From: Octopus vulgaris
Lineage: Eukaryota
Length of the DNA stretch: 64,000 bases
Assembly: GCA_951406725.2 (NCBI GenBank)
Contig: OX597815.1
Location: 930,001-994,000, forward strand
Direction: 5' to 3'
Below, piece by piece: positions 109-59,630 of this stretch. The number at the start of each line of letters is the position of its first letter. The first letter of the stretch is position 1. The position numbers and the translations under genes were made by a program. The notes under the pieces were generated by a model. That model was given only the letters and a program-made list of their open reading frames with translations, was not told where the DNA came from and did no database searches.

Positions 109-1522
109 TGATGATGATGATATAGGCAGTACTCCAGCATGGCTGTAGTCAAGACTGAAACAAATAAAAGTATGTCTGTGTGTATGTATGTGTGTATATA
201 TATATATATATTGAGTTAATTTGAGGAAGTCATATCCTTATTCGGGATTATAGAATCCAAGGTATTCCACTGGTTTAATCCCTATGTCTTCTCCATTTTC
301 TTCTTGTTTCCCCCGCCCCCTAGTATATATATATATAGTGACACCTTCACATGTTTATCCCTTTTGCTTTGACCTGGTCCACTCTGGCCCAGCTCTTCTG
401 CCTATTTTACATTTAAACTGGCCAGATCTGGTCTCTCACACCTACCCAACAAAGTCATTCTGAAAATAATGAATCACCAAAATCCTGAAGTTACAAGATA
501 ATGCAGGATTAATTCACAACAATATAAATAAATAATCAATGTTTAAAGGGTTGACGCCAGGTGAGCCCTGAGTCAGGTGAGGCCTTTGACCAGATAGGTT
601 TCAGCCTCCCATTACTCTGCCTTTTTACAGGCCATTGTAGATCTGCAACCAGTTCAGTGGTTTTCAACCGTTTATTTATTTATTTTATTTATTTATTTTA
701 TTTTTTATTTTATCTAGTTTCAGCTCACGAGCTGTGGCCATGCTGGGGCACCGCCATATTTGTTTTGTTTTTGTTTTTCCAGTTTCAGCTCTTGAGCTGT
801 GGCCATGCTGGGGCACCGCCATTGTGGTGAAAGAGTACAGCAGGGATCACCACCACCCCCTGCCTGAGCCTCGTAGAGCTTTTAGGTGTTTTCGCTCAAT
901 AAACACACACAACGCCCGGTCTGAGAATCGAAACCGCGATCCTGCGACCACGAGTCCGCTGCCCTAACCACTAGGCCATTGCGCCTTATTTATTTATTTA
1001 TTTTTTGGTACTCTGATCAGATCCCAAACTGTAACTTTTTAGGGGGCCACAGTAAAAGATAGGTTTTATTAAAGAAAAGTTTATTTATAGGGAGAAGACT
1101 GTCATGGTGGCATGCGGCCCTTGGGACCATTTGGGGTTGAGAACCACTGAGGTTGATTGTCTCAGATATTCATCTCTTTTCAAGACAGTAGGAGATTTAG
1201 TTGCTGTTTCTAGCAGACTGAGTGACTGCCTACAAGTTAATCTTGTTGGGCTGGCTGGCTGGCTGGCTGCATTGCTATTTTTAACTGGAGCAGAAATTAC
1301 CTTGAGGTATTTGGGTAGGAATTTAGAATCAAGTCTGGTGAGAGATTACATAACAGAGTGGAAGGTCTAGTTGCTGGCTTACAGGTGGAATGGTAAATAT
1401 TGGGTGGGAAGGGGGGGGGGAGACAATGGAATGACAGAAATAGTTGAGTGCCAGATTACAGCATGGCTGGGGGAAGGGTTTGTTTTAGGATCGGTGTGTG
1501 TGTAAGTGTGTGAATGTTTCTG

Positions 1523-1929: not shown

Positions 1930-4327
1930 AAAGATCTATCTATGAATATTTGTGTGTGTATTTGTCTCTATATCATCCTCATCCTCAAACCTGCATGTTC
2001 CACGCTGGCCTGGGTTTGACGGTTTGACAGGGACCTATGAGTCCAAGGACTGCACCATGCTCCTATGTCTGTTAGGGTTTCTATGGCTAGAATGCCCTTC
2101 TTGCAAACATCAGCCCCTTTACAGAGGGGGACTGGGAGCCTTTCCTTGTGCCACCAGCACTAATTAGGTCATGTCAATCTGGTAAGCCTACAAAGCCTGC
2201 AGAATGGGTGGGAGATACAACCTCACGTTAAATAGGGGTTGAGGGAAGAGGTAGAGCAGGTTCATGTTGCAGAGGGGCTGCACGGCTACCCCCATGTAGA
2301 AGAGATTGAGAATGAATTAGAAGAATCTTCAAAAAGATAGTGGTAATGAGGGTATCTAGGTGGTACCCCAGGTTGAGAAGACCTGTGGAGTCAAGTGAAA
2401 TCATTGTTGTGGCTGATGCCAGTGCCACCTGACTGGAACCCGTGCTGGTGGCACATAAAAAGCACCATTCAAACGTGGTCGATGTAAGTGCTGCCACTCT
2501 GGCTCCTGTGTTGGTGACACGTAAAAAGCACCATTTGAGTGTGGTGGAACGTAAAAGGCACCTGCTACACTCCTGGAGTGGTTGGCATTAGGAAGGGCAT
2601 CCAGCTGTAGAAGCCTTGCCGAATCAGATTGGAGCCTGGTGCAGCCCCCTGGCTTGCCAATTGTCAGTCAAACTGTCCAACCCATGGAAAGCGGATGTTA
2701 AACGATGATGATGATGAAAGGCAGTGAACTTCCACTGAAATGTGGTAAGAAAAGGGTCAGAGTGGAACCTTGTCCCTGAATGTCTGCAACAATAATTTGA
2801 TGAAAAATTAATTCTCATTGAACCAATCATTTTTATTCAGAAACACAGTTTGTCACTTCAAATGTAACTTAAATTCTGTTAATTTCTTCTGAATGTGCAA
2901 AAATGACCCAAACAAGGTCCTTATTTGTGGTCCCCTCATTTCACTAATTCAAAATTGACTTTAGTTGCCCTTTGTTACAAAGTTAAAGGAATATTCACTG
3001 ATTACTTAGTGCATTCACCCTCTTCTTTTTTACCCTTTTTCTTTCTTTACTTTTTTTCTTCTTTATTCACATCTGCAATGTTTCATAGGAATACAACTGT
3101 TCCCACGTATGTGACTGGTATCCTGTTTTGTTGACCTCTGTTGTATTTGTTCTCATGACTGGGTTGGAAGGTCAACATCCTTCCTTGCCAACCTTATTCA
3201 GGCTCTCCAAGATTGATGGTGGAAAGGGAAGTACTTGTCCTCTTGCCAGAGATTTGGCCCCAAATTCTTGCAATTACGTAAGGACCCAAGAATCAGGTAA
3301 TGGAGGCCATTTTGCACTATTTTTTCTGTCAACTGAATTCCAAATTTGGTTGACCTGAGGCTGTAGTCGAAGGCATTTGCCCCAAAAACCACAAATGGAA
3401 TTGAACCTGAAATCTTGGTAGTTGAACTGTGAATGAAAATGGCTGTAAATACCACTAGGCATTTTGTTTTTTTCATCTTGTCTGCTCCAAAATTGTGACT
3501 CTTTAACAAAATTAGAAATATTTTCAATGGGTTGGCAAGGTGGCACAACCTTTAGAATGCCAGGCAAAACACTTGACAGCATTTCATCTGTCTTCATGTT
3601 TGGAGTCCAGGCTGACTTGGCCTGGCGCTAGGGTCGATGTAATCAACTTATTCGCTTCCCTGAGATTGCTGGCCTTGTGTCAAAATTTGAAACCAACATT
3701 TTGAATCAGTTTGGAGTGGAGTTGTGGGGAGGAGGAGAAACTGATACAAGAGTCTTCCTTCTGAACCCAACCCACAAACTGGATGCTTTTGATCTGAGTT
3801 CAATTTCTGCTGAATTTGACATTTACTTTTAATGATGACATACAAAGGGTTTGGCCAGCTGTAGCAGTCTGCCATCAAACTATGCAGGTATTTCATGTCT
3901 TGTGTCAAACAACACTTCCATTACCTCTTTCAACAGTGGTGTTACCATTCCATACAAGCTCCCCCCCCCCAACTACATTTTTATTCTTCCTTCTACACAA
4001 CCTGACATTGGAAAGGAAACATCTCACATCTTCACATTGTGTCTGCCATGTTTCACTTCCCTTCTCCTTGTTTTATTGTTCTCCCTCTCTTTTCTGCCAA
4101 ATAATTCACTTCCGTTCCCATTGGAATTTTCTTCCTTGGTGAAAATATGGCTTTCTCAACATCCCTTCTTCCATTGCATCCTTTCACTCTTCCATTGTTA
4201 GACCAAATTCCTTGTAGTTTTTAGTTTCAGTCTGTTCTGTTCAGTATTCAAATCCCACGGAGGTCAGTTTTACCTCTTCTTCCAGGGTCCAAGAAATAAG
4301 GGTACCAGTGTTGTACTGCGGTCAGTT

Positions 4328-4558: not shown

Positions 4559-4789
4559 TCAACTGATACTACTGTTGCCTCAGTTTCTTCAAGCAAGATC
4601 CCTGCCAGAGAATTCCAAAGGAATCTTCTAAATGGTACTCACAGTGCAGCATTCCTGTATGATCCCAGTTATAAACTTTAAAAGGGATTATCTCTTAACA
4701 CCTAAGACTCTTCTCTTTGTAATTCAATCCATCATTCGATGTTCTCACAAAGAAACTGTTGCCAAAACTCCTTCGCTCATTTCTTGTAG

Positions 4790-6452: not shown

Positions 6453-6649
6453 AGCTATTTAAAGAATGAAAAAAATAAAATAAAGTAGCCTTATCTCAGA
6501 AGTGGGAACATGATATCAAGGTCTCACTCCCTATTTTGCATCCCTTCCCCCCCACTTACCTCCGTTAACTTTTTACATCTTTCCTCTCTTAAAGATAATA
6601 AATAAGAGAGCATAACCTTATTTTTTAGAAGTTGAATGAATATTCTTAT

Positions 6650-7266
6650 CCCCTGCACCCTAATCCTTATCCCCTACCCCTAATCCTTATCCCCTACCCA
6701 CTAATCCTTATCCCCTACCCACTAATCCTTATCCCCTACCCACTAATCCTTATCCCCTACCCACTAATCCTTATCCCCTACCCACTAATCCTTATCCCCT
6801 ACCCACTAGTCCTTATCCCCTACCCACTAATCCTTATCCCCTACCCACTAGTCCTTATCCCCTACCCACTAGTCCTTATCCCCTAGCCCCTAATCCTTAT
6901 CCCCTACCCACTAATCCTTACCCCCTAATCCTTATCCCCTACCCACGAATCCTTATCCCCTACCCCCTAATCCTTATCCCCTACCCACTAATCCTTATCC
7001 TCTACCCACTAGTCCTTATCCCCCACCCACTAGTCCTTATCCCCTAGCTCCTAATCCTTATCCCCTACCCACTAATCCTTATCCCCTAGCCCCTAATCCT
7101 TATCCCCTACCCACGAATCCTTATCCCCTACCCACGAATCCTTATCTCCTACCCCCTAGTCCTTATCCCCTACCCCCTAATCCTTATCCCCTACCCACTA
7201 GTCCTTATCCCCTACCCCCTAATCCTTATCCCCTACCCCCTAATCCTTATCCTCTACCCACTAATC
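6650..7266. repeat. 21-bp C-rich/G-rich minisatellite (CACTAATCCTTATCCCCTACC)n
   Basis: About 29 tandem units read directly from the sequence. Confidence 0.95.
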
Positions 7267-35553: not shown

Positions 35554-38500
35554 ACTTTGATACTTTGATACTTTGATAGGTTTCGGCCATTATTGGCCCA
35601 GGCCATGTCTAACTTAATAGCACCACCTGGTGAAGTCTTTCAAGTCAGAATTTGGGCACTATGGCCCACTCAAGTAGAGAGTTATTGTTTACAGAGACAT
35701 ATCCGGGTGTAGGGGGTTTATCCGGGATTTCTTGAAGGAATCTGTCCAAAGACTTCTTGAACCCTATAGGGTCAGTTTCTGTTTTAATGTGTTTTGGTGT
35801 AATGTTAAAGAGAGCGGGGCCAATTGAGGTGAAATAATTGTGCCGTATTGTTGTTATGAGATGAGAGTGCGATTTTTGTTTTGGGCGGATGGCACGGGGC
35901 CCAAGCCTTGGATGTACCTTAAAGGTGATGCCAACATCATTTGGGCAATGCTGATGGAATATTTTCCACATCATGCAGATGATGTAGCGCTCACGACGAC
36001 GTTGGAGAGAATAGAGTTTTAGCTTTTCTAGCCGACCCCAATAGTCGAGGCCTGTCATGCCATCTATCTTTTTTGTGATTGCCCTTTGAGGTGCTTCAAC
36101 TTTTATGATACCTTGTATTGTGTGGGGAGACCACAGTGGACAAAGTATTCAAGGTGGGGTCGGGCAAAAGTGGAGAAGAGAAGGATAATGGTGTGGATAT
36201 CTCTCGACTGGAAAGTTCTGAGAATCCAGGAACACATTCTGTGGGCCATGTCAACTTTGGTGTTTATATGAGTGGCCCAGCTTACGTTGTTGTCCACAAT
36301 TACTCCCAAGTCTCTGATGTTGTTGGACGCCGCGAGAGTTTCACCTGAAGGAAGGGAGTATGGGAGTTTCAGGGCATCCTCTTTACCAAAGTGGATTAGC
36401 TCAAATTTATCCTCGTTCAGCAGCATATTGTTTTTTTCTGCCCATTGGATAACAGCCAGTAGATCTGACTGAAGGCATGTCCGGTCACTCGCCTCATTTA
36501 TGACCTTCTGTAGCTTGGAGTCATCTGCAAAGATTTTTATGTTGCTGTGCTTGATGATGTCATTAATGTCATTAATGTAAATGATGAAAAGAAGTGGGCC
36601 CAGCACAGTGCCTTGCGGAACGCCACTACTGACTTTGGCTGGGCTTGATTTTACCCCTTCAACTACAACATGTTGAGATCTGTCTGTCAGGAAACACTTA
36701 ATCCATTTCAGTAACTTTCCAGAGACACCAATGTTGGATAGTTTTTACAATAGGATCTTGTGATCGACCCTGTCGAAGGCCTTACTGAAATCAAGGTAGA
36801 TGACATCGGTGTTGGAGCCCTCTCCCAAAGCTCTCAAAATGTCCTCAAAGTGATGCAGGAGCTGCGTTAGGCAGTCCCTTCCATTACGGAACCCATGTTG
36901 GTTGGAGATCAGCCGTCTGTTGCTTTCCAGGAATTGGGTTATTCGAGATCTCACCACCCTCTCAAATACCTTGATGATATGAGAGGTGAGTGAGATCGGA
37001 CGGTAATTCACTGCAAGGGACTTGTTTCCCTTTTTGAAAACTGGGACAACAGACTGGGACAGAAGGTTTTTGGAATATAGCCAGCATCCAGTGAGTTTCT
37101 CCACAGATTAGCAAGGGGAGATGCAAGTTGGTGTCGACACACCTTCAGGACACAAGCAGGGAACCTATCGGGGCCTACTGCTGAATTGTGTTTTATTTCG
37201 TTTATCGCCGCTAAGACATCAGGGGCACTAAACGTTATGTCCGATATAGTGTGTTGGGGGTTGACATCACTGATACAGCCCAGATCGGCCATATCAGGAT
37301 TGCTGAAAACAGAGCAGTATTGTTTCTGCAGTATCTCGGCCATGGATTTGGCATTATCTTGGAGAGTGCCAGTTTCGTCAATTAGAGGGCCTACAGTGGA
37401 GACAGTGACCCTGCGTTTCCTCGCAAATGAAAAGAACACTTTGGGGTTGAGTTTGATTTTTTCAATGGCCCACTTCTCCTCAGCTGATCTTTGGTTATTG
37501 ATGAGGGTCTTCATGCATTGTTGGAGGTTATATTTTTTGGATTCAAGCAGTGCGATAGCCGTCGAATGTGTGTGTTGCTGTTGGCAGTACTTTAGTTTGT
37601 TAATTTTTTTGTTTGTTCTTTTTATTTTTCTGATAATGGTTTTTCTGTTTTGGGGGATTCTGCACTTTTTGTTCACAGGTCTTGGTGGGGAGTGTTTTGC
37701 ACATATGTCTGTGACGGTGTCTACAAAGATCTGCCAAGATGTTTTATGGTTGGTGGAGATGTGTGTATGTGTAAAGGACCAGTCAACATGTGATAGCTCG
37801 TTTCTGATTGCATCCCAGTTGGCTTTATGGAGATCCATGTTGTCAAATGGGTGGGCTGGAGGAAGGTCACTAGGATTAGCTTTCGGCTGGTGGAATTTCA
37901 TGTTACAGAGAACCATGTCATGGTCTGAAAGAAGGGTTTTTTCCACTGTAACGTTATGTATAGTGTTAGTGTGGTTACTAAACACTAGGTCCAAAATGTT
38001 CTGATGTCTTGTTGGTGCAAGGACAAGTTGGGACAAGAAAAACTCATTCGTAAAGTCGAAAAGTGACTCTGCTGCTTCTTTGTCAGCGGTTGAGGCGGGA
38101 GTGCTTGGTTTCAAACAGTTTGTAGTCCAGTCAACACAGGGTAGATTGAAGTCTCCCATCATGAGTATGTTGCTAGAATGGCACTGTTGAATAAAGCACT
38201 TAATGCTGTTGAGGCATTCTTTAAAGCACAGTATGGGTGTTTGGGGCGGCCTATAGAGCCCAATTACTGTCAGGTCATTGGCTTTGTTGTGCACGGTGAC
38301 TGATTCACAGTAGCCATTGGAGAATATACTATTTCCATCTGCCGTAAATGAATCATGCAGGAAAATGGCAGTTCCACCCTTCCTCCTGCCGATACGATCC
38401 GCGCGGATGGTTGTGAAATTCTTCACTCTCACTTCGGCTTCCAAGTGGGAGTTGTCAAGGTGGGTCTCAGTGAGAATGAAGAAAGGGATGTGGTGTGAAT

Positions 38501-39636
38501 GGTTACCAACCCAGTCTTCAATGAATTGGACCTTCCATTTTTGTGTATTGATGGAAGGGCTGACACCTTGTGCATTGAGTAGGAATGTGGAGGTTAGTGT
38601 AGTGGCTGGTTTTGACTGTTGCAGGGGGCTTGGATTTTTTGTGTGTGTTAGTGGCAGCAATGTGGGGAATTGATGCACTGGGTTAATAGCATAGGATGGT
38701 GTTGAGTGATGGCTAGAATGTTTTTGTGTATCTCTTTTGCCATGTTCAACATGGCTAAAAGAATTTTCCTGCTTAGGGAGCAGTTTTTGGCTGGAGGTGT
38801 GGTTGCACTGTTGGATAGGGTTGTAGTTTCCACTTTTGTTGTTGTTGTTTTTGTGTCTTCCTGAAAAGACTGGACCAGCATTACTGCAGCATGGTGTGTT
38901 TCTATTTTTATTGTTATTCAGGTTTGTGTGTTGGCTTGAGGCCCCGTTTCTGTTTGTGCGTCGGGTCCCTGGAAGATGAGTGAAGGGACAGTCACTCAGT
39001 AGACATGTTCTCTCACGTTGGGAATACCGGCAGATTTTGGGACTCCGAGTTGTGTGTGTTTTGAATTTCGATTTACTATTTGGTGGTGTTGATGTTATTG
39101 TGGGATGCGTGCTTTGGCCTTGGCTGGTAGTGCGTCTAGTGCCGGGTAGATGCGTGAAGATGCAGTCACTATTTGTGCAGAGTCTCTGGCGCAGTGAATA
39201 GCGGCATATTTGGGGATTTCTTGTTTGTGCCGTGGGGGGCGCATTCTGCTTCCTATGTTTCTTTAAGTTTTTGTTACTGCAGTAGTATTGAGGTGGTGAT
39301 GTGGGGGAAGAGGGCAGTGGTTTCTTATTTGGTTTTCTGTTGGTATTTTTGGTGATAGAAGACGATGGTGGCAGCGGTGGTGATGATGATGATGATAATT
39401 GTGGTGGTTGCTGTGAGAGCAGTGAAAAGATACTGGCATTTAGTGAATCATCTAGTAAGCTAGAGTTGAGGAGTGGCTGTTGTTGTTCTTGTTGCTGTGG
39501 CTGTTGTTGTTGTTGTTGTGCCTGACCAATGTCAGGGATATATATACATACATACATACATATATATATATATACATACATACATATATATACATATATA
39601 CATATACATACATACATATATATATATACATACATA

Positions 39637-44058: not shown

Positions 44059-44482
44059 TTTAGGAAAACGAATATGGAAGAAAAAAAAAATGTGCGGAAA
44101 TCAAGAGGGTGGAGAGAGGAGTTGAGAAAGTTCACAAGATCCCAGTTTTAGAGAGTGGGGAATAAATCCAAATTTTAAATACTCCTCTGAGTATTGAACC
44201 TGCATCACTCATTTTATATATTTTCACCAATAAATAAATATGGAGGAATTAAAAAAAAAAAATTTTAAATATCCTTTACACCCCTCCTGCACAAATTTAT
44301 CCAAGTTTTGACACTTTAGAGACATCAAATCTTCTGAATCTGACTACCAAGACTCATAAGATCTGATGTCTCTAAAGTGTCAAAACTTGGATAAATTTGT
44401 GCAGGAGGGGTGTATAGGATATTTTTAATTTTTTTTGTTTTTTAATAATTCCTTCTTGAATTTCCCCCTTTCTCTTATTGAT
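44057..44482. repeat. ~425-bp segment containing a long palindrome; copy 1 of 2 (copy 2 at 47429-47859)
   Basis: Near-identical to 47429-47859. Internal inverted repeat ...cacccctcctgcacaaatttatccaagttttgacactttagagacatca / tgatgtctctaaagtgtcaaaacttggataaatttgtgcaggaggggtg. Confidence 0.95.
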
Positions 44483-44564
44483 ACATACATATATACATAC
44501 ATTGATACATATATATATACATACATATATATATACATACCATACATACATACCATACATACGT

Positions 44565-44664
44565 NNNNNNNNNNNNNNNNNNNNNNNNNNNNNNNNNNNN
44601 NNNNNNNNNNNNNNNNNNNNNNNNNNNNNNNNNNNNNNNNNNNNNNNNNNNNNNNNNNNNNNNN
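44565..44664. other. Assembly gap (100 N) inside a microsatellite (44482-45500)
   Basis: Run of 100 n. Confidence 1.
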
Positions 44665-45298
44665 TACATACATATATATATATATATACATACATACATA
44701 TATATATATACATATATATATATACATACATATATATATACATACATATATATATATACATACATATATATATATATATACATACATATATATATATATA
44801 TACATACATATATATATATATATACATACATATATATATATATATACATACATACATATATATATATATACATACATACATATATATATATATACATACA
44901 TACATATATATATATACATACATACATATATATATATACATACATATATATATATATATACATACATACATATATATATATATACATACATATATATATA
45001 TATACATACATATATATATATATATACATACATATATATATATATACATACATATATATATACATACATATATATATATACATACATATATATATATATA
45101 TACATACATATATATATACATACATATATATATATATATACATACATATATATATATATATACATACATATATATATATATACATACATATATATATATA
45201 CATACATATATATATATATACATACATATATATATATACATACATATATATATACATACATATATATATATATATACATACATATATATATACATACA

Positions 45299-45336
<38 letters not shown>

Positions 45337-45499
45337 CATACATATATATATATATACATACATATATATATATATATACATACATATATATATATATATA
45401 CATACATATATATATATATATACATACATATATATATATACATACATATATATATATATATATACATACATATATATATATATACATACATACATATAT

Positions 45500-46786
45500 A
45501 TAAAATCCTTAAAAAATCCTTAAAAATGTTTTAGCCCGAAGGCCGCGGCCATGCTGGGGCACCACCGCTGAATGAGCTACACTAGTTTGTGAATCCACCT
45601 CTGATACGTGGCACTTGATCAACAAGGAGTTCGATGCTGCTGCCCGCATCCGTGTCTCCTGTCGTGAGGTAGGTTCATCTGGGACTCCCAACAAGAAGAG
45701 ATCCAGTTTAGTTTTAAAGAAACCCACATCCACACCATGTAAGTCTCTCAGGCATTTAGGGAGGATGTTGAAAAGCTGTGGTCCTCTGAAACCCAAGCTG
45801 TTGCAGTATCTGGACCTGTATTTTGATGGTGATGTTGGAATCCTTGGCACCACGCAGCGGCGCCCCGTTCTGCGGTTGGAGTAACTTTGAATGCCAAAGT
45901 TTGGGACAAGACCCTCCAGGATTTTCCAGATGTATATTACTGCATATCTCTCCCGCCTCCGCTCCAGGGAGAAGAGGTTTAATACCTTCAGTCTTTCCCA
46001 GTAGCTGACATTTTGCATTGAGACGATTTTCTTTGTGTAGCTTCTCTGAGTTGCTTCGAGTTCTGCTGTTTGTTTTATATTGTGTGGTGACCAAAGTTGG
46101 GAGCAGTAGTCCAAGCGGCTGAGGACAAATGTTTTCCATAGGACCATCAGTGTCTCCTTCTCTCTTGTTCTGAAAGTTCGGAGAATCCATCCAGCTAGCC
46201 GTCTGCATTTTATCACCAGATTAGCAATATGCATTTGGAAAGATGCATCATTGCTCATGTCAATGCCCAGGTCACGCACTGATTTTGACTCAGGGATTGC
46301 AATTCTTCCTGGGCCAGTGTATCCAGTCTTCACGTCATTTACCTTTGTGTGCCAGTAGCGCAGGGCCTGGAACTTACCTGCATTAAACTGCATGTTGTTG
46401 TCCTCAGCCCACCTGTATATTGTGTCCAGCTCATGTTGCAGATGCGCAATATTTTCAGGGTTCTGTATTGCGTGGGAGACCTTTGTGTCATCTGCATAGC
46501 TAGCAAGGGTGGTCATCGTAGCAACTGAAGGCATGTCTGAAAGGGCCACTATGAACATCAGTGGCCCCAAGACAGTGCCCTGTGGGACACCGCTTGTTAT
46601 TTGCGTTTCCCTGGAGGTGGCTCCATTGCTCACAACTGCCTGTTTTCTGTCTTTTAGGAAGTTGTGCAGCCACTCTCCAAGTTTCCCGCCTATGCCGAGA
46701 CCACGCAGTTTGTGACAGATCATACCATGGTCGACTTTATCAAAGGCTTTTGCAAAGTCAAGATATATTACATCCACATTTGAGCC
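45500..46786 (-). mobile_element. 5'-truncated CR1/L2-group LINE with an uninterrupted RT/C-terminal ORF (45509-46777, 422 aa)
   Basis: [69 protein letters not shown]. No internal stops. 3' end ggtggtgccccagcatggccgcggccttcgggctaaaac followed by a short (AGGATTTTTTA) tandem tail. Confidence 0.93.
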
Positions 46787-46798
46787 ATAAAGCTACGT

Positions 46799-46883
46799 TT
46801 CCCAAGCATAGGGCCGGAAATCGAATCCAGGCCGCCGCGGTCGAAATCCATGCTGGGAATCCTAACCACTAGACCACTTGGGA
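46799..46883 (-). other. tRNA-Glu-derived sequence (Pol III-type head) fused to the LINE; not a canonical tRNA
   Basis: TCCCAAG TGGTCTAGTGGTTAGGATTC...CCGCGGCGGCCTGGATTCGATTTCCGG...CTTGGGAA parallels metazoan tRNA-Glu (TCCCTGGTGGTCTAGTGGTTAGGATTC...GGGTTCGATTCCCGGTCAGGGAA), with extra bases in the anticodon arm and before the acceptor 3' strand. Confidence 0.75.
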
Positions 46884-46885
46884 CA

Positions 46886-47428
<543 letters not shown>

Positions 47429-47430
<2 letters not shown>

Positions 47431-47859
47431 TTTTAGGAAAACGAATATGGAAGAAAAAAAAATGTGCGGAAATCAAGAGGGTGGAGAGAGGAGTTGAGAA
47501 AGTTCACAAGATCCCAGTTTTAGAGAGTGGGGAATAAATCCAAATTTTAAATATTCCTCTGAGTATTGAACCTGCATCACTCATTTTATATATTTTCACC
47601 AATAAATAAATATGGAGGAATTAAAAAACAAAAAAAATTAAAAATATCCTTTACACCCCTCCTGCACAAATTTATCCAAGTTTTGACACTTTAGAGACAT
47701 CAAATCTTCTGAATCTGACTACCAAGACTCATAAGATCTGATGTCTCTAAAGTGTCAAAACTTGGATAAATTTGTGCAGGAGGGGTGTATAGGATATTTT
47801 TAATTTTTTTTGTTTTTTAATAATTCCTTCTTGAATTTCCCCCTTTCTCTTATTGATAT
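47429..47859. repeat. Copy 2 of the palindrome-containing ~430-bp segment
   Basis: Differs from 44057-44482 by a few substitutions and homopolymer lengths. Confidence 0.95.
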
Positions 47860-53914: not shown

Positions 53915-54374
53915 CTGAAAAGAAATGTTCAAATATTGTAATAAACATTTAATGCTACTACTACTACTATTACTACTACTACTACTACTACGAATAATAA
54001 TAATAAATAATAATACTTCTTTCTATAACAGGAACAAGAGCTGAAATTTTGGGGGAGGTTGGTTAGTTGATACCAGAACACAACTGGTACTTTCTCTGGT
54101 GTGAAAGGATGAAAAGCAGAGTTGACCTCAATGGAGTTGGAATTCAGAATGTAAAGACAGACAAAATACCGCAAAGCATTTTGCTCAGGAAGGTAACAAT
54201 TCTGCCAACTCACCAGAATAATAATAATAATAATAATAATAATACACAAATAAATAGAAGAGTACCATATCATGTGAAATTTGTTGAACAGTATTTCGGC
54301 ATCTAGTCTGCCTTCCACAGGTTCAAAAATTACATGTCAGTCAACTTCATACACAAATACACATGGAAACACTT

Positions 54375-57300
54375 CAAACAATTCACCAATACGTCAAACA
54401 ATTCACCAACACATCAAACAATTTCCCAATACATCAAACAATTTCCCAATACATCAATTCACCAACACGCCAAACAATTCACCAACACGCCAAACAATTC
54501 ACCAACATGCCAAACAATTCACCAACATGCCAAACAATTCACCAACATGCCAAACAATTCACCAACACGCCAAACAATTCACCAACATGCCAAACACTGC
54601 ACCAACACGTTAAACACTTCAACACGTCAAACATTTCACCAACACATCAAACATTTCACCAATACATCAATTTACCAACACATCAAATAATTCACCAACA
54701 CGTTAAACACTTCACCAAAACGTCAAACGATTCACCAATATACCAACACGTCAAACAATTCTCCAACACGTTAAACAATTCAACAACACATCAAACAATT
54801 CAGCAATACATCAATTCACCAACACGTTAAACAATTTGCCAACACATCAAACAATTCACCAATACATCAATTCACCAACACGTTAAACAATTCAACACAT
54901 CAAACAATTCACTAATACATCAATTCACCAACACGTCAAACAATTCTCCAAAACGTTAAACAATTCACCAACACGTCAAACAATTCACCAACACGTTAAA
55001 CAATTTGCCAACACATCAAACAATTCACCAACACGTTAAACAATTCACCAACATGTTAAACAATTCACCAACACATCAAACAATTCACCAACACATCAAA
55101 CAATTCACCAACATGTCAAACAATTCTCCAACACGTTAAACAATTCACCAATACATCAATTCACCAACACGTTAAAAAATTCACCAACACATCAAACAAT
55201 TCATCAATATGCCAAACAATTCTCCAACACATCAAACAATTCACCAACATGCCAAACAATTCAACAACACGTTAAACAATTTGCCAACACGTAAAACAAT
55301 TCACCAACACGTTAAACAATTCACCAACACATCAAACAATTCACCAACACACCAAACAATTCACCAACACGTCAAACAATTCACCAACACGTTAAACAAT
55401 TCACCAACACATCAAACAATTCAGCAACACGCCAAACAATTCAACCAACACGTTAAACAATTCACCAACATGTCAAACAATTCTCCAACACATTAAACAA
55501 TTCACCAATACATCAATTCACCAAAACGTTAAACAATTCGCCAACATGTTATACAATTCACCAACACGTCAAACAATTCACCAACACGCCAAACAATTCA
55601 CCAACATCATCATCATCATCATCATCGTCGGTTAAACAATTCACCAACACGTCAAACAATTCCCCAGTGCATTAAACAGTTTGCCAACACATCAAACAAT
55701 TCACCAACACTTTAAACAATTCACCAATATGCCAAACAATTCACCAACACGCCACACAATTCACCAACACGTTAAACAATTCAAAACGTTAAACAATTCA
55801 CCAGCACGTTAAACAATTCACCAACACGCCAAACAATTCACCAACACACCAAACAATTCACCAACACGTTAAACAATTCACCAATACTTTAAACAATTTA
55901 TCAACACATCAAACAATTCACCAACACGTCAAACAATTCACCAACACGCCAAACAGTTTACCAACACATCAAACAATTCACCAATACATCAATTCACCAA
56001 CATGTCAAACAATTCAACATGAACAATTCACCAACACGTTAAACAATTCACTAACACATCAAACAATTCACCAACACGTCAAACAATTCAACATGAACAA
56101 TTCACCAACACATCAAACAATTCACCAATACATCAATTCACCAACACGTCAAACAATTCACCAACACGTTACACAATTCACCAACACATCAAATAATTCA
56201 CCAACTCGCCAAACAATTCACCAACACGTCACACAATTCACCAACACATCAAACAATTCACCAATACATCAATTCACCAACACGTCAAACAATTCACCAA
56301 CACAAACAAGTTGCCAACACATCAAACAATTCACCAATACATCAATTCACCAACACGTTAAACAATTCACCAATACATCAATTCACCAACACGTTAAACA
56401 ATTCACCAATACATCAATTCACCAACACGCCAAACAATTCACCAACACGTTAAACAATTTGCCAACACATCAAAGAATTCGCCCATACATCAATTCATCA
56501 ACACGTTAAACAATTCACCAATACATCAATTCACCAACACGTCAAACAATTCACCAACACAAACAAGTTGCCAACACATCAAACAATTCACCAATACATC
56601 AATTCACCAACACGTTAAACAATTCACCAATACATCAATTCACCAACACGTTAAACAATTCACCAATACATCAATTCACCAACACGCCAAACAATTCACC
56701 AACACGTTAAACAATTTGCCAACACATCAAAGAATTCGCCCATACATCAATTCATCAACACGTTAAACAATTCACCAATACATCAATTCACCAACACGCC
56801 AAACAATTCACCAACACGTTAAACAATTCACCAACACATGAAACAATTCAACAACACGTTAAACAGTTCACCAACACATCAAACAATTCACCAACACATC
56901 AAACAATTCTCCAACACGTTAAACAATTCACCAACACATCAAACAATTCACCAATACATCAATTCACCAACACGCCAAACAATTCACCAACACGTTAAAC
57001 AATTCACCAACACATGAAACAATTCACCAACACATCAAACAATTCACCAACACATCAAACAATTCTCCAACATGTTAAACAATTTACCAATACATCAATT
57101 TACCAACACAAGAACCACTTCAAGAATATGTCAAACAATTCACCAACACAAAGAATTCACCAACACGTCAAACAATTCAACAATGTGTGAAACAATTCAC
57201 CAATATGGTCTCAAAAATTTGTCCTACAAAGAGAGGCTGAGGACGCTCGACCTTTATTCTCTTGAAAAACGCCGCCGCCATGGTGATCTCATTCTCGCCC

Positions 57301-59600
57301 ACAACATCATAAGCGAGAAGTGTAACCTCTTGAAAGAGCTGTTCTTCACTCCTGCTTCGGAGCGTCGGCTGCGGGGTCATTCCGAAAAGCTCTACCTGCG
57401 ACGATTTCATCTCAATCGAAGGAGAGGAGCTTTCTCCGTCCGGGTTGCGGATCCGTGGAACAAGCTGCCAGACGAGATGGTGAAGATGCCGACGACCGCT
57501 TTGTTCAAACAATTCACCAATACATCAATTAACCAACACGTCAAACAATTCACCAATACATCAATTCACCAACACAAACAATTTGCCAACACATCAAACA
57601 ATTCACCAATACATCAATTCACCAACATGCCAAACAATTCACCAACACGTTAAAAAATTCACCAACACATGAAACAATTCACCAACAGGTTAAATAATTC
57701 ACCAACACGTTTGACAATTCACCAACACGTTAAAAAATTCACCAATACATCAATTCACCAATATGCCAAACAATTCACCAACACGTTAAACTATTCATCA
57801 ACATGCCAAACAATTCACCAACACGTTAAACAATTCACCAACACGTTAAACAATTCACCAACACATCATACAATTCACCAACACGTCAAACAATTCACCA
57901 ATACATCAATTCACCAACACGCGAAACAAATCACCAACACGTTAAACAATTTACCAACACAAGAAGCACTTCAAGAATACGTCAAACAATTTACCAACAC
58001 ATCAAACAATTCACCAACACATCAAAGAATTCAACACGTCAAACAATTCAACAATACGTGAAACAATTCACCAACACATCAAACAATTCACCAATACATC
58101 AATTCACCAACACACCAAACAATTCACCAACATGTCAAACAATTCAACACGAACAATTCACCAATACATCAATTCACCAACACGTTAAACAATTTGCCAA
58201 CACATCAAACAATTCACCAAGACGCCAAACAATTCACCAATACATCAATTCACCAACACGTCAAACAATTCACCAACACGTTAAACAATTTGCCAACACA
58301 TCGAACAATTCACCAATACATCAATTCACCAACACGTCAAACCATTCACCAATACATCAATTCACCAACACAAACAATTTGCCAACACATCAAACAATTC
58401 ACCAACACGTTAAACAAGTTGCCAACACATCGAACAATTCACCAATACATCAATTCACCAACACGTTAAACAATTTGCCAACACATCAAACAATTCAACC
58501 ATACATCAATTCACCAACATGTTAAACAATTTTCCAACACATCAAACAATTCACCAATACATCAATTCACCAACACATTAAACAATTCACCAACATATCA
58601 AATAATTCACCAACACGTCAAACAATTCACCAACAGGTTAAATAATTCACCAACACATCAAACAATTCACCAACACGTTTGACAATTCACCAACACGCCA
58701 AACAATTCAGCAACACGTTAAACAATTCACCAATACATCAATTCACCAATATACCAAACAATTCACCAACACATTAATCTATTCATCAACATGCCAAACA
58801 ATTCAGCAACACGTCAACACATTAAACAATTCACCAACACATCAAATAATTCACCAACACACTAAAGAATTCACCAACACGTTAAACGATTCACCAACAC
58901 CTTTGACAATTCACCAACACGCCAAACAATTCACCAACACGTTAAACAATTCACCAATGCATCAATTCATCAACACTCTAAACAATTCACCAATACATTA
59001 AACAATTCACAAACACATCAAACAATTCACCAACACGTCAAACAATTCACCAACACGTCAAACAATTCACCAACACGTCAAACAATTCACCAACACGTCA
59101 AACAATTCAACAACACGTCAAACAATTCAACAACACGTCAAACAATTCACCAACACATCAAACAATTCACCAACACGTCAAACAATTCACCAACACGTCA
59201 AACAATTCACCAACACGTCAAACAATTCACCAACACATCAAACAATTCAACAACACATCAAACAATTCACCAACACGTCAAACAATTCACCAACACGTCA
59301 AACAATTCACCAACACGTCAAACAATTCACCAACACGTCAAACAATTCACCAACACGTCAAACAATTCACCAACACGTCAAACAATTCACCAACATGTCA
59401 AACAATTCACCAATACATCAATTCTCCAACATGCCAAACAATTCACCAACACGTCAAACAATTCACCAACACGTCAAACAATTCACCAACACGTCAAACA
59501 ATTCACCAACACGTCAAACAATTCACCAACACGTCAAACAATTCACCAACACATCAAACAATTCACCAACACGTCAAACAATTCACCAACACGTCAAACA
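54375..59600. repeat. ~5.2-kb satellite, 20-bp unit (CAAACAATTCACCAACACGT) with 16-bp variants
   Basis: Hundreds of tandem units read directly; interrupted at 57207-57505 and 55606-55632. Confidence 0.97.
57207..57505 (+). mobile_element. CR1-type LINE C-terminal coding fragment embedded in the satellite
   Basis: GLKNLSYKERLRTLDLYSLEKRRRHGDLILAHNII...LRGHSEKL...FSVRVADPWNKLP. Confidence 0.88.
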
Positions 59601-59630
59601 AAACATTTGCTAAACCATCAAACCACTCAC

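What the first reader, a model, noticed from the sequence alone, without database searches (positions are those of the whole stretch)
45500..46883. tRNA-Glu-derived head fused directly to a young, stop-free LINE RT fragment
Seen in sequence: on the - strand a tRNA-Glu-like 85-mer with A/B-box-like motifs and a paired acceptor stem (TCCCAAG/CTTGGGA) is followed after ~12 nt by LINE sequence that begins mid-RT ([11 protein letters not shown]). The LINE runs uninterrupted to its 3' tail, and the whole unit is bounded by TA microsatellite. The head carries an extra CCCAGCATGG, which also occurs in the LINE's own 3' tail and can pair with CTATGCTTGGGAA in an alternative stem. Established: RT template switching creates small-RNA/LINE chimeras (e.g. 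U6-L1), and this is a proposed route to new SINEs. Inference: either a one-off chimera or a multicopy Pol III-driven non-autonomous retroelement (a nascent SINE).
Basis: partly seen in the sequence, partly recalled or inferred. Interest (0 to 1): 0.7.

Follow-up and report, generated by a model that had tools for sequence, protein, structure and literature searches.

The report
Pre-tRNA fused mid-gene to young LINE
A single copy of an unprocessed glutamate tRNA is fused to the front of a truncated young jumping gene (LINE), likely because the copying enzyme hopped onto the tRNA precursor; it is not a new SINE family, and bits of LINE sequence woven into the tRNA either record repeated hops or are an assembly error.

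Summary
Real, but a one-off, not a nascent SINE. The head is a pre-tRNA-Glu(CTC) with 4-nt leader and 10-nt trailer, best matching one gene on contig C7. It is joined at its Pol III U-run to the last 1.27 kb of a young, TA-targeting LINE (1,206 exact 3'-UTR hits). Both junction motifs occur once outside the tRNA genes. Such fusions are common in this genome: 24 of 33 dispersed tRNA-Glu copies, and 10 of 130 U6 ends fused to this same LINE's last ~50 nt. The scan noted this class before on other DNA. Unusual here: the join lies inside ORF2, and the tRNA is interrupted by LINE sequence from just upstream of the join. No other junction of 102 shows this in-register similarity (z 7.6, next 2.0). 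Repeated template switching (~55%) versus consensus artefact (~45%) is unresolved: no raw reads were available.

The parts
46888..47431 (.). TA/ATAC microsatellite, 5' flank (target); a target-site duplication cannot be read in it
46884..46887 (-). 4-nt 5' leader shared with source gene L032 (first 2 nt could equally be target)
46856..46883 (-). tRNA-Glu(CTC) nt 1-28 (5' acceptor strand, D arm, A box), identical to the gene
46839..46857 (-). Exact 19-nt patch of LINE ORF2 (ref 3354-3372, QHGFR codons) replacing the anticodon loop; 2-nt and 3-nt microhomologies at its ends
46808..46838 (-). Variable loop and T arm of the tRNA with the G53A variant of L032, one further substitution, and an 11-nt scrambled stretch (46818-46808) ending in CTAT(G), as in LINE ref 3403-3407
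46789..46807 (-). 3' acceptor strand (46807-46799) plus 10-nt 3' trailer ending in TTT (46798-46789), identical to three C7 genes
45503..46788 (-). 5'-truncated young LINE: ORF2 from the RT domain onward, 3' UTR, (TTAAGGAT)-type tail repeats at 45503-45526; 97.6-99.3% identical to most fetched copies; private 1-nt deletion at 45628
45545..45568 (-). Predicted 3'-UTR stem-loop; U6 chimeras of this family join just 5' of it (ref 4652-4654)
44665..45502 (.). TA/ATAC microsatellite, 3' flank, ending at a 100-N assembly gap (44565-44664)

Best explanation
This is a single, very recent chimeric retrocopy: the full precursor of one tRNA-Glu(CTC) gene is joined at its Pol III U-run to a 5'-truncated LINE, likely because the LINE reverse transcriptase, priming in a TA microsatellite, jumped from its own RNA onto the U-ended pre-tRNA. 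Shown: the parts, the best-matching source gene, single copy, youth, and many parallel U6 and pre-tRNA fusions by this and sister LINEs. Inferred: target-primed reverse transcription copied 1.27 kb of LINE RNA, switched at ORF2 position 3435 to the 3' end of the pre-tRNA, and read it through to the leader. The LINE patches inside the tRNA are most likely (about 55%) further switches back to the unread LINE RNA, which would stay tethered beside the enzyme because no RNase H domain was found in ORF2; otherwise (about 45%) they are a consensus error laid over a clean junction. The product is probably a dead pseudogene.
For: Source: L032 (G000:C7:54.085 Mb) is the only one of the 3 trailer-bearing genes with the ATTG leader, an intact A box and the G53A variant. 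Only 4 nt of its upstream flank are present, so an RNA was copied. Single copy. Youth: against 36 young copies the LINE part has 5 substitutions, each shared with 4 other copies, and 1 private indel. Family: 1,206 exact 3'-UTR hits; microsatellite directly after the tail in 26 of 27 other copies with a readable tail (by eye). Recurrent process: 10 of 130 U6 3' ends are fused to this LINE at ref 4652-4654 and 31 to sister tails; 24 of 33 tRNA-Glu copies outside the gene clusters carry a LINE tail (8) or SINE-like sequence (16) directly behind them, nearly all after a trailer and T-run. For a real mosaic: no in-register leak at 101 other junctions, 27 of them with complex flanks (z -1.3 to 1.2); a second displaced 19-nt upstream patch at L065, 2 of 106 junctions, with no N in that 3-kb locus; microhomologies at the patch ends; the two patches are the two arms of a predicted 14-bp LINE RNA stem (pairing probability 0.98-1.0).
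Against: No read or contig evidence for the junction was obtained. No target-site duplication can be read in TA. The mechanism is inferred from structure only; RNA ligation before reverse transcription gives the same simple junction. Against a real mosaic: the T-arm stretch needs several 1-5-nt patches and unexplained bases. Its shift toward in-register LINE is strong under collinear alignment (gain 19, null maximum 17 in 1,306 overlapping windows), which is what a column-wise consensus would give, but it is not significant under a free-jump model (21 of 116 random windows as good). The element lies 840 nt from an assembly gap. The pre-tRNA has no special homology or pairing to the junction region (cofold rank 11%). 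That the patches coincide with the stem arms was noticed post hoc; my rough chance estimate is about 0.1.
Confidence: 0.7

Rival explanations
1. The chimera is real but clean; the LINE patches inside the tRNA are a consensus or polishing artefact that mixed the true junction with reads of longer LINE copies.
For: Collinear, roughly in-register patches, including single bases that match the LINE. The head is 13 nt longer than the precursor. A gap lies 840 nt away and the flank recurs across it at 98%. A private homopolymer deletion suggests residual read error. None of the other U6 chimeras fused to LINE tails (41) has an indel of 4 nt or more, nor do the 24 fused tRNA-Glu copies.
Against: No such leak at 101 other junctions of the family. 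The 19 nt next to the junction are pure tRNA while the largest patch is 50-69 nt away. L065 shows an out-of-register patch of the same size. The short-tail chimeras are a weak comparison because none has a long LINE part.
Confidence: 0.4
2. A pre-tRNA was ligated to a cleaved LINE RNA (RtcB-type, as shown for U6/L1) and the fused RNA was reverse transcribed.
For: The junction is at the U-run with a variably truncated LINE, as for ligated U6/L1 RNAs (PMC6789731, passages).
Against: That ligation needs a 2',3'-cyclic phosphate; nascent Pol III ends carry a 3'-OH (own knowledge). Ligation does not explain LINE sequence from upstream of the join inside the tRNA.
Confidence: 0.12
3. A nascent Pol III-driven SINE family with a tRNA-Glu head and a long LINE body.
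For: A box intact; the LINE 3' stem-loop and tail are present; the tRNA-head-plus-LINE-end layout is the proposed route to SINEs (PMC4476161, PMC5786205).
Against: One copy; B box altered at G53 and C61; T4 run before the tail.
Confidence: 0.03
4. Two separate events: a tRNA gene or retrocopy was there first and the LINE inserted at its T-run, or the assembler joined two loci.
For: No target-site duplication is readable; the AT at the junction resembles the family's target; the locus is near a gap.
Against: Only 4 nt of gene flank, TA on both outer sides, a junction exactly at the terminator, and dozens of parallel U-run fusions.
Confidence: 0.08

Closest known systems
U6/LINE and U6/SINE template-switch chimeras with stringent LINEs: platypus U6-L2 and U6-Mon1, anole U6-L2/RTE/AnolisSINE2 (Doucet et al. 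2015, PMC4476161; passages seen)
   Same: Pol III RNA in sense orientation joined at its U-run to a LINE 3' part; short or unreadable target duplications; LINE with a simple-repeat tail
   Different: The head is a precursor tRNA with leader and trailer; the host is an invertebrate (closest named ORF2 relative Argonauta hians, 61%); the join is 1.27 kb into ORF2; LINE patches lie inside the head
tRNA/LINE-1 chimeras of mammals, 21 loci (bioRxiv 10.1101/2025.02.02.635956; passages seen, supplements not)
   Same: tRNA fused 5' of a truncated LINE in one insertion
   Different: Those are mostly half-length and antisense (twin priming proposed); this one is full-length, sense and unprocessed
U6/L1 chimeras formed by RtcB ligation (Moldovan et al. 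2019, PMC6789731; passages seen)
   Same: U-run joined to a variably 5'-truncated LINE
   Different: Requires a cyclic-phosphate end, typical of mature U6; no internal mosaic described in the passages seen
Extra nucleotides at LINE 5' junctions, e.g. zebrafish ZfL2-2 (PMC4245944; passages seen)
   Same: Additional sequence between target and truncated LINE
   Different: Several nucleotides there; here a whole pre-tRNA interleaved with upstream LINE sequence

Membership tests
Small-RNA/LINE chimeric retrocopy | Small RNA copy directly 5' of a 5'-truncated LINE, same orientation | tested here: met
Small-RNA/LINE chimeric retrocopy | Join at the Pol III U-run, source-gene flanks absent | tested here: met
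   trailer ends in TTT at 46789; 4 nt of leader only
Small-RNA/LINE chimeric retrocopy | One target-site duplication around the whole unit | tested here: inconclusive
   TA microsatellite on both sides; U6 chimeras of this family show short, repeat-like or no duplications
Small-RNA/LINE chimeric retrocopy | Junction supported by raw reads or an empty allele | tested here: inconclusive
   only contigs of other runs could be laid, none on the junction; the tool says a hole proves nothing
SINE family | Multiple dispersed copies sharing head and junction | tested here: not met
   1 copy
SINE family | Intact A and B boxes and no terminator before the tail | tested here: not met
   B box G53A and C61T; T4 at 45774-45771
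SINE family | Pol III transcription | not testable with these tools
   no raw RNA reads
APE-type LINE (CR1-group-like) | ORF2 with AP endonuclease and RT, ORF1 upstream, short tandem-repeat tail | tested here: met
   L117: 1,039-aa frame with Exo_endo_phos and RVT_1 and no RNase H hit; upstream 302-aa frame with only sub-cutoff CCCH and Myb hits; tail
APE-type LINE (CR1-group-like) | Clade by RT phylogeny with named references | not tested
   no named clade references came from the tools; the CR1-group label is recalled

The most novel reading that the evidence does not exclude
The mosaic is genuine: a LINE reverse transcriptase shuttled at least five times between a pre-tRNA and its own tethered, hairpin-forming RNA, staying roughly in register, and left a DNA record of copy-choice between two unrelated RNAs.
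Probability: 0.35. Interest if true: 0.65.

Novelty: new variant of a known kind. Interest (0 to 1): 0.4.

Why it matters
The genome-wide pattern shows the step long proposed for SINE birth, a tRNA head gaining a LINE 3' end, happening repeatedly in an invertebrate with precursor tRNAs traceable to single genes. This copy is the rare case with a long LINE part (no ORF2-internal join among 10 U6 fusions of this family; 2 of 130 U6 ends, both other families). If the mosaic is real it would show back-and-forth template use by a non-LTR reverse transcriptase. If not, it shows how an assembly consensus can weave repeats together. The element itself is probably inert.

Tried and rejected
Reads: the run search listed 20 holders at up to 0.69 of the words, about the LINE-only share, and no RNA holder on record. 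Contigs of 6 runs were laid; none bridged the junction, and the one contig on the head's 5' end belongs to another locus. This is no evidence either way. Origin of the extra motif in the 3' tail: rejected (10 versus 19 nt). A second tRNA (Gly-GCC or Glu-TTC) as donor of the T-arm stretch: 30 of 35 columns match Gly, but adding either did not lower the mosaic cost. Homology-guided first switch: the precursor's 3' 30 nt score no better at the junction than at 32% of LINE positions. Empty allele: the block 47432-47858 recurs at 44059-44483 (98%) across the gap with ~130 nt of matching microsatellite pattern, which suggested the other haplotype without the insertion; but that block is itself a dispersed repeat (next copies 96% and 93%), so this is open. 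The pattern was mis-spaced and missed the window locus. Rfam and ARAGORN found no tRNA in the head. Literature searches (listings only, 6 papers opened in part) listed no paper on pre-tRNA/LINE chimeras in cephalopods or on interleaved junctions; the library is incomplete and supplements were not seen. A word look-up in earlier scan notes for such mosaics gave 0.

Full report
Setting. The window is G000:C2:930001-994000 of a 2.8-Gb genome in 227 contigs. The only informatively named ORF2 relative among the 120 listed is from Argonauta hians at 61%, so the host is likely an octopod (inference).

The LINE. 46788-45503 (-) is the last 1.27 kb of a young LINE. Of 29 other loci fetched, 27 align over more than 1.1 kb at 97.6-99.3%. 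A 25-mer of its 3' UTR has 1,206 exact hits. Copies end in short tandem repeats followed by TA microsatellite, and 72.5% of 102 5' flanks are microsatellite-rich. A long copy (L117) has a 1,039-aa frame with AP endonuclease and RT and no RNase H hit. Against 36 young copies the window copy has 5 shared substitutions and one private 1-nt deletion at 45628 that shifts the last ~13 codons. It is stop-free but not intact, and too young for decay to explain changes in the head.

The head. A genome search with the head returned itself and 39 places at 78-84% (40 scored of 140 candidates); the 29 other loci fetched all hold tRNA-Glu genes or copies. The head continues past the tRNA 3' end with a 10-nt trailer found in exactly three genes of a cluster on C7. 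Only L032 has, together, the ATTG leader, an intact A box and the G53A variant. So the head is a precursor tRNA-Glu(CTC), joined to the LINE at the T-run where Pol III stops. Of 127 exact tRNA-Glu motif hits 100 were listed; the 27 unlisted were not viewed, but the trailer search was genome-wide.

Copy number. One. With a damaged B box and a T4 run before the tail, it is not a SINE family and is an unlikely founder.

A recurrent process. Among 130 distinct U6 3' ends examined (from 48 Rfam hits and the first 100 of 259 motif hits), 10 are fused to this LINE, all at reference positions 4652-4654 just before a predicted stem-loop; 31 are fused to sister tails, 51 to SINE-like sequence, and 38 are other (genes and unclassified). 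Among 33 tRNA-Glu copies in 30 loci outside the three clusters, 8 carry a LINE tail and 16 SINE-like sequence, nearly all after a trailer and T-run. Tails were tied to LINEs by tblastn; the SINE label rests on my motifs and recall, not on a library. I found this pattern before the look-up; earlier scan notes report the same class elsewhere in this genome. ORF2-internal joins are rare: 2 of 130 U6 ends, both other families (L303 by tblastn, L321 by eye).

The mosaic. The anticodon loop is replaced by an exact 19-mer from ORF2 positions 3354-3372, 62 nt upstream of the join at 3435 and 50 nt upstream in the head, with 2- and 3-nt microhomologies. An 11-nt scramble at the T stem ends in a 5-mer found at 3403-3407. 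In-register similarity scores z 7.6, the next junction 2.0, of 102 (14 of 116 copies were left out for gaps, short flanks or near-full length). One other junction of 106, L065, has a displaced 19-nt upstream patch. After removing the 19-mer, the remaining changes favour in-register LINE under collinear alignment but not under a free-jump model. In the LINE RNA the two patches are the arms of a predicted 14-bp stem (the 95-nt window ranks in the top 7% of LINE windows for stability, and the link was noticed post hoc).

Mechanism. Inferred: target-primed reverse transcription in a TA run, then a switch from LINE RNA to the U-ended precursor, as described for U6 with L2, RTE and their SINEs (PMC4476161, passages). 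Without RNase H the LINE RNA would stay paired to the cDNA and its unread part would hang beside the enzyme, giving a reason for returns to nearby upstream LINE sequence (inference). The rival is a consensus artefact: the locus lies 840 nt from a 100-N gap and its flank recurs across the gap, though that flank is a dispersed repeat. I weigh these about 55 to 45. Read tools could not decide.

Comparison. It works like the U6/LINE chimeras and meets their structural definition except for the unreadable target duplication. Mammalian tRNA/L1 chimeras are mostly antisense halves (bioRxiv 10.1101/2025.02.02.635956, passages; its supplementary table of 21 loci was not seen and may hold full-length sense cases). 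Papers seen: passages of PMC4476161, PMC6789731, PMC4245944, PMC5786205 and that preprint, and the first third of PMC13282606, which lists recently active CR1 and U-L1 families in an octopus genome (context only).

Verdict. A genuine one-off precursor-tRNA/LINE chimera, a variant of a known kind, with an unresolved mosaic that one look at raw reads would settle. Interest 0.4.

Noticed in passing
L183, L232, L235, L236, L238, L241, L254, L283, L293, L297: U6 fused to the last ~50 nt of this same LINE family, always at reference positions 4652-4654, 5' of the predicted 3'-UTR stem-loop: a preferred stop or cut site.
   Followed up: partly
L034, L040, L041, L058, L060, L095, L097, L209-L212, L214, L215, L217-L221, L223-L227: Dispersed tRNA-Glu copies, mostly with trailer and T-run, fused to LINE tails or SINE-like sequence; the L040 trailer matches gene L038.
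   Followed up: partly
L065:790-845: Another copy of the LINE with an exact 19-nt patch from 103 nt upstream of its truncation point, set in an AAT microsatellite; L080 and L015 show short iterated duplications at their 5' junctions.
   Followed up: partly
window 44059-44483 and 47432-47858: A 427-nt, partly palindromic dispersed repeat with sharp ends, present twice (98%) across the N gap; other haplotype or local duplication, undecided.
   Followed up: partly
window 35708-38585 (-): A second, different LINE family (32-44% ORF2 identity) with its own tail, also ending in TA; its tail heads chimeras L060 and L226.
   Followed up: partly
window 690-822: Two tandem copies of a sister LINE's ~65-nt 3' tail behind SINE-like sequence.
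   Followed up: no
L096; L243; L278; L303; L321; L333; L338: Further fusions: tRNA-Glu followed by a second tRNA-like sequence (L096), U6-U6 dimers (L243, L278), U6 joined inside other LINEs' ORF2 (L303, L321), tRNA-Gly precursors followed by SINE-like or LINE-tail sequence (L333, L338).
   Followed up: no
window 54368-59601 and 6645-7266: A 5.2-kb array of a 20-nt unit (269 copies) and a 21-nt minisatellite (30 copies).
   Followed up: no
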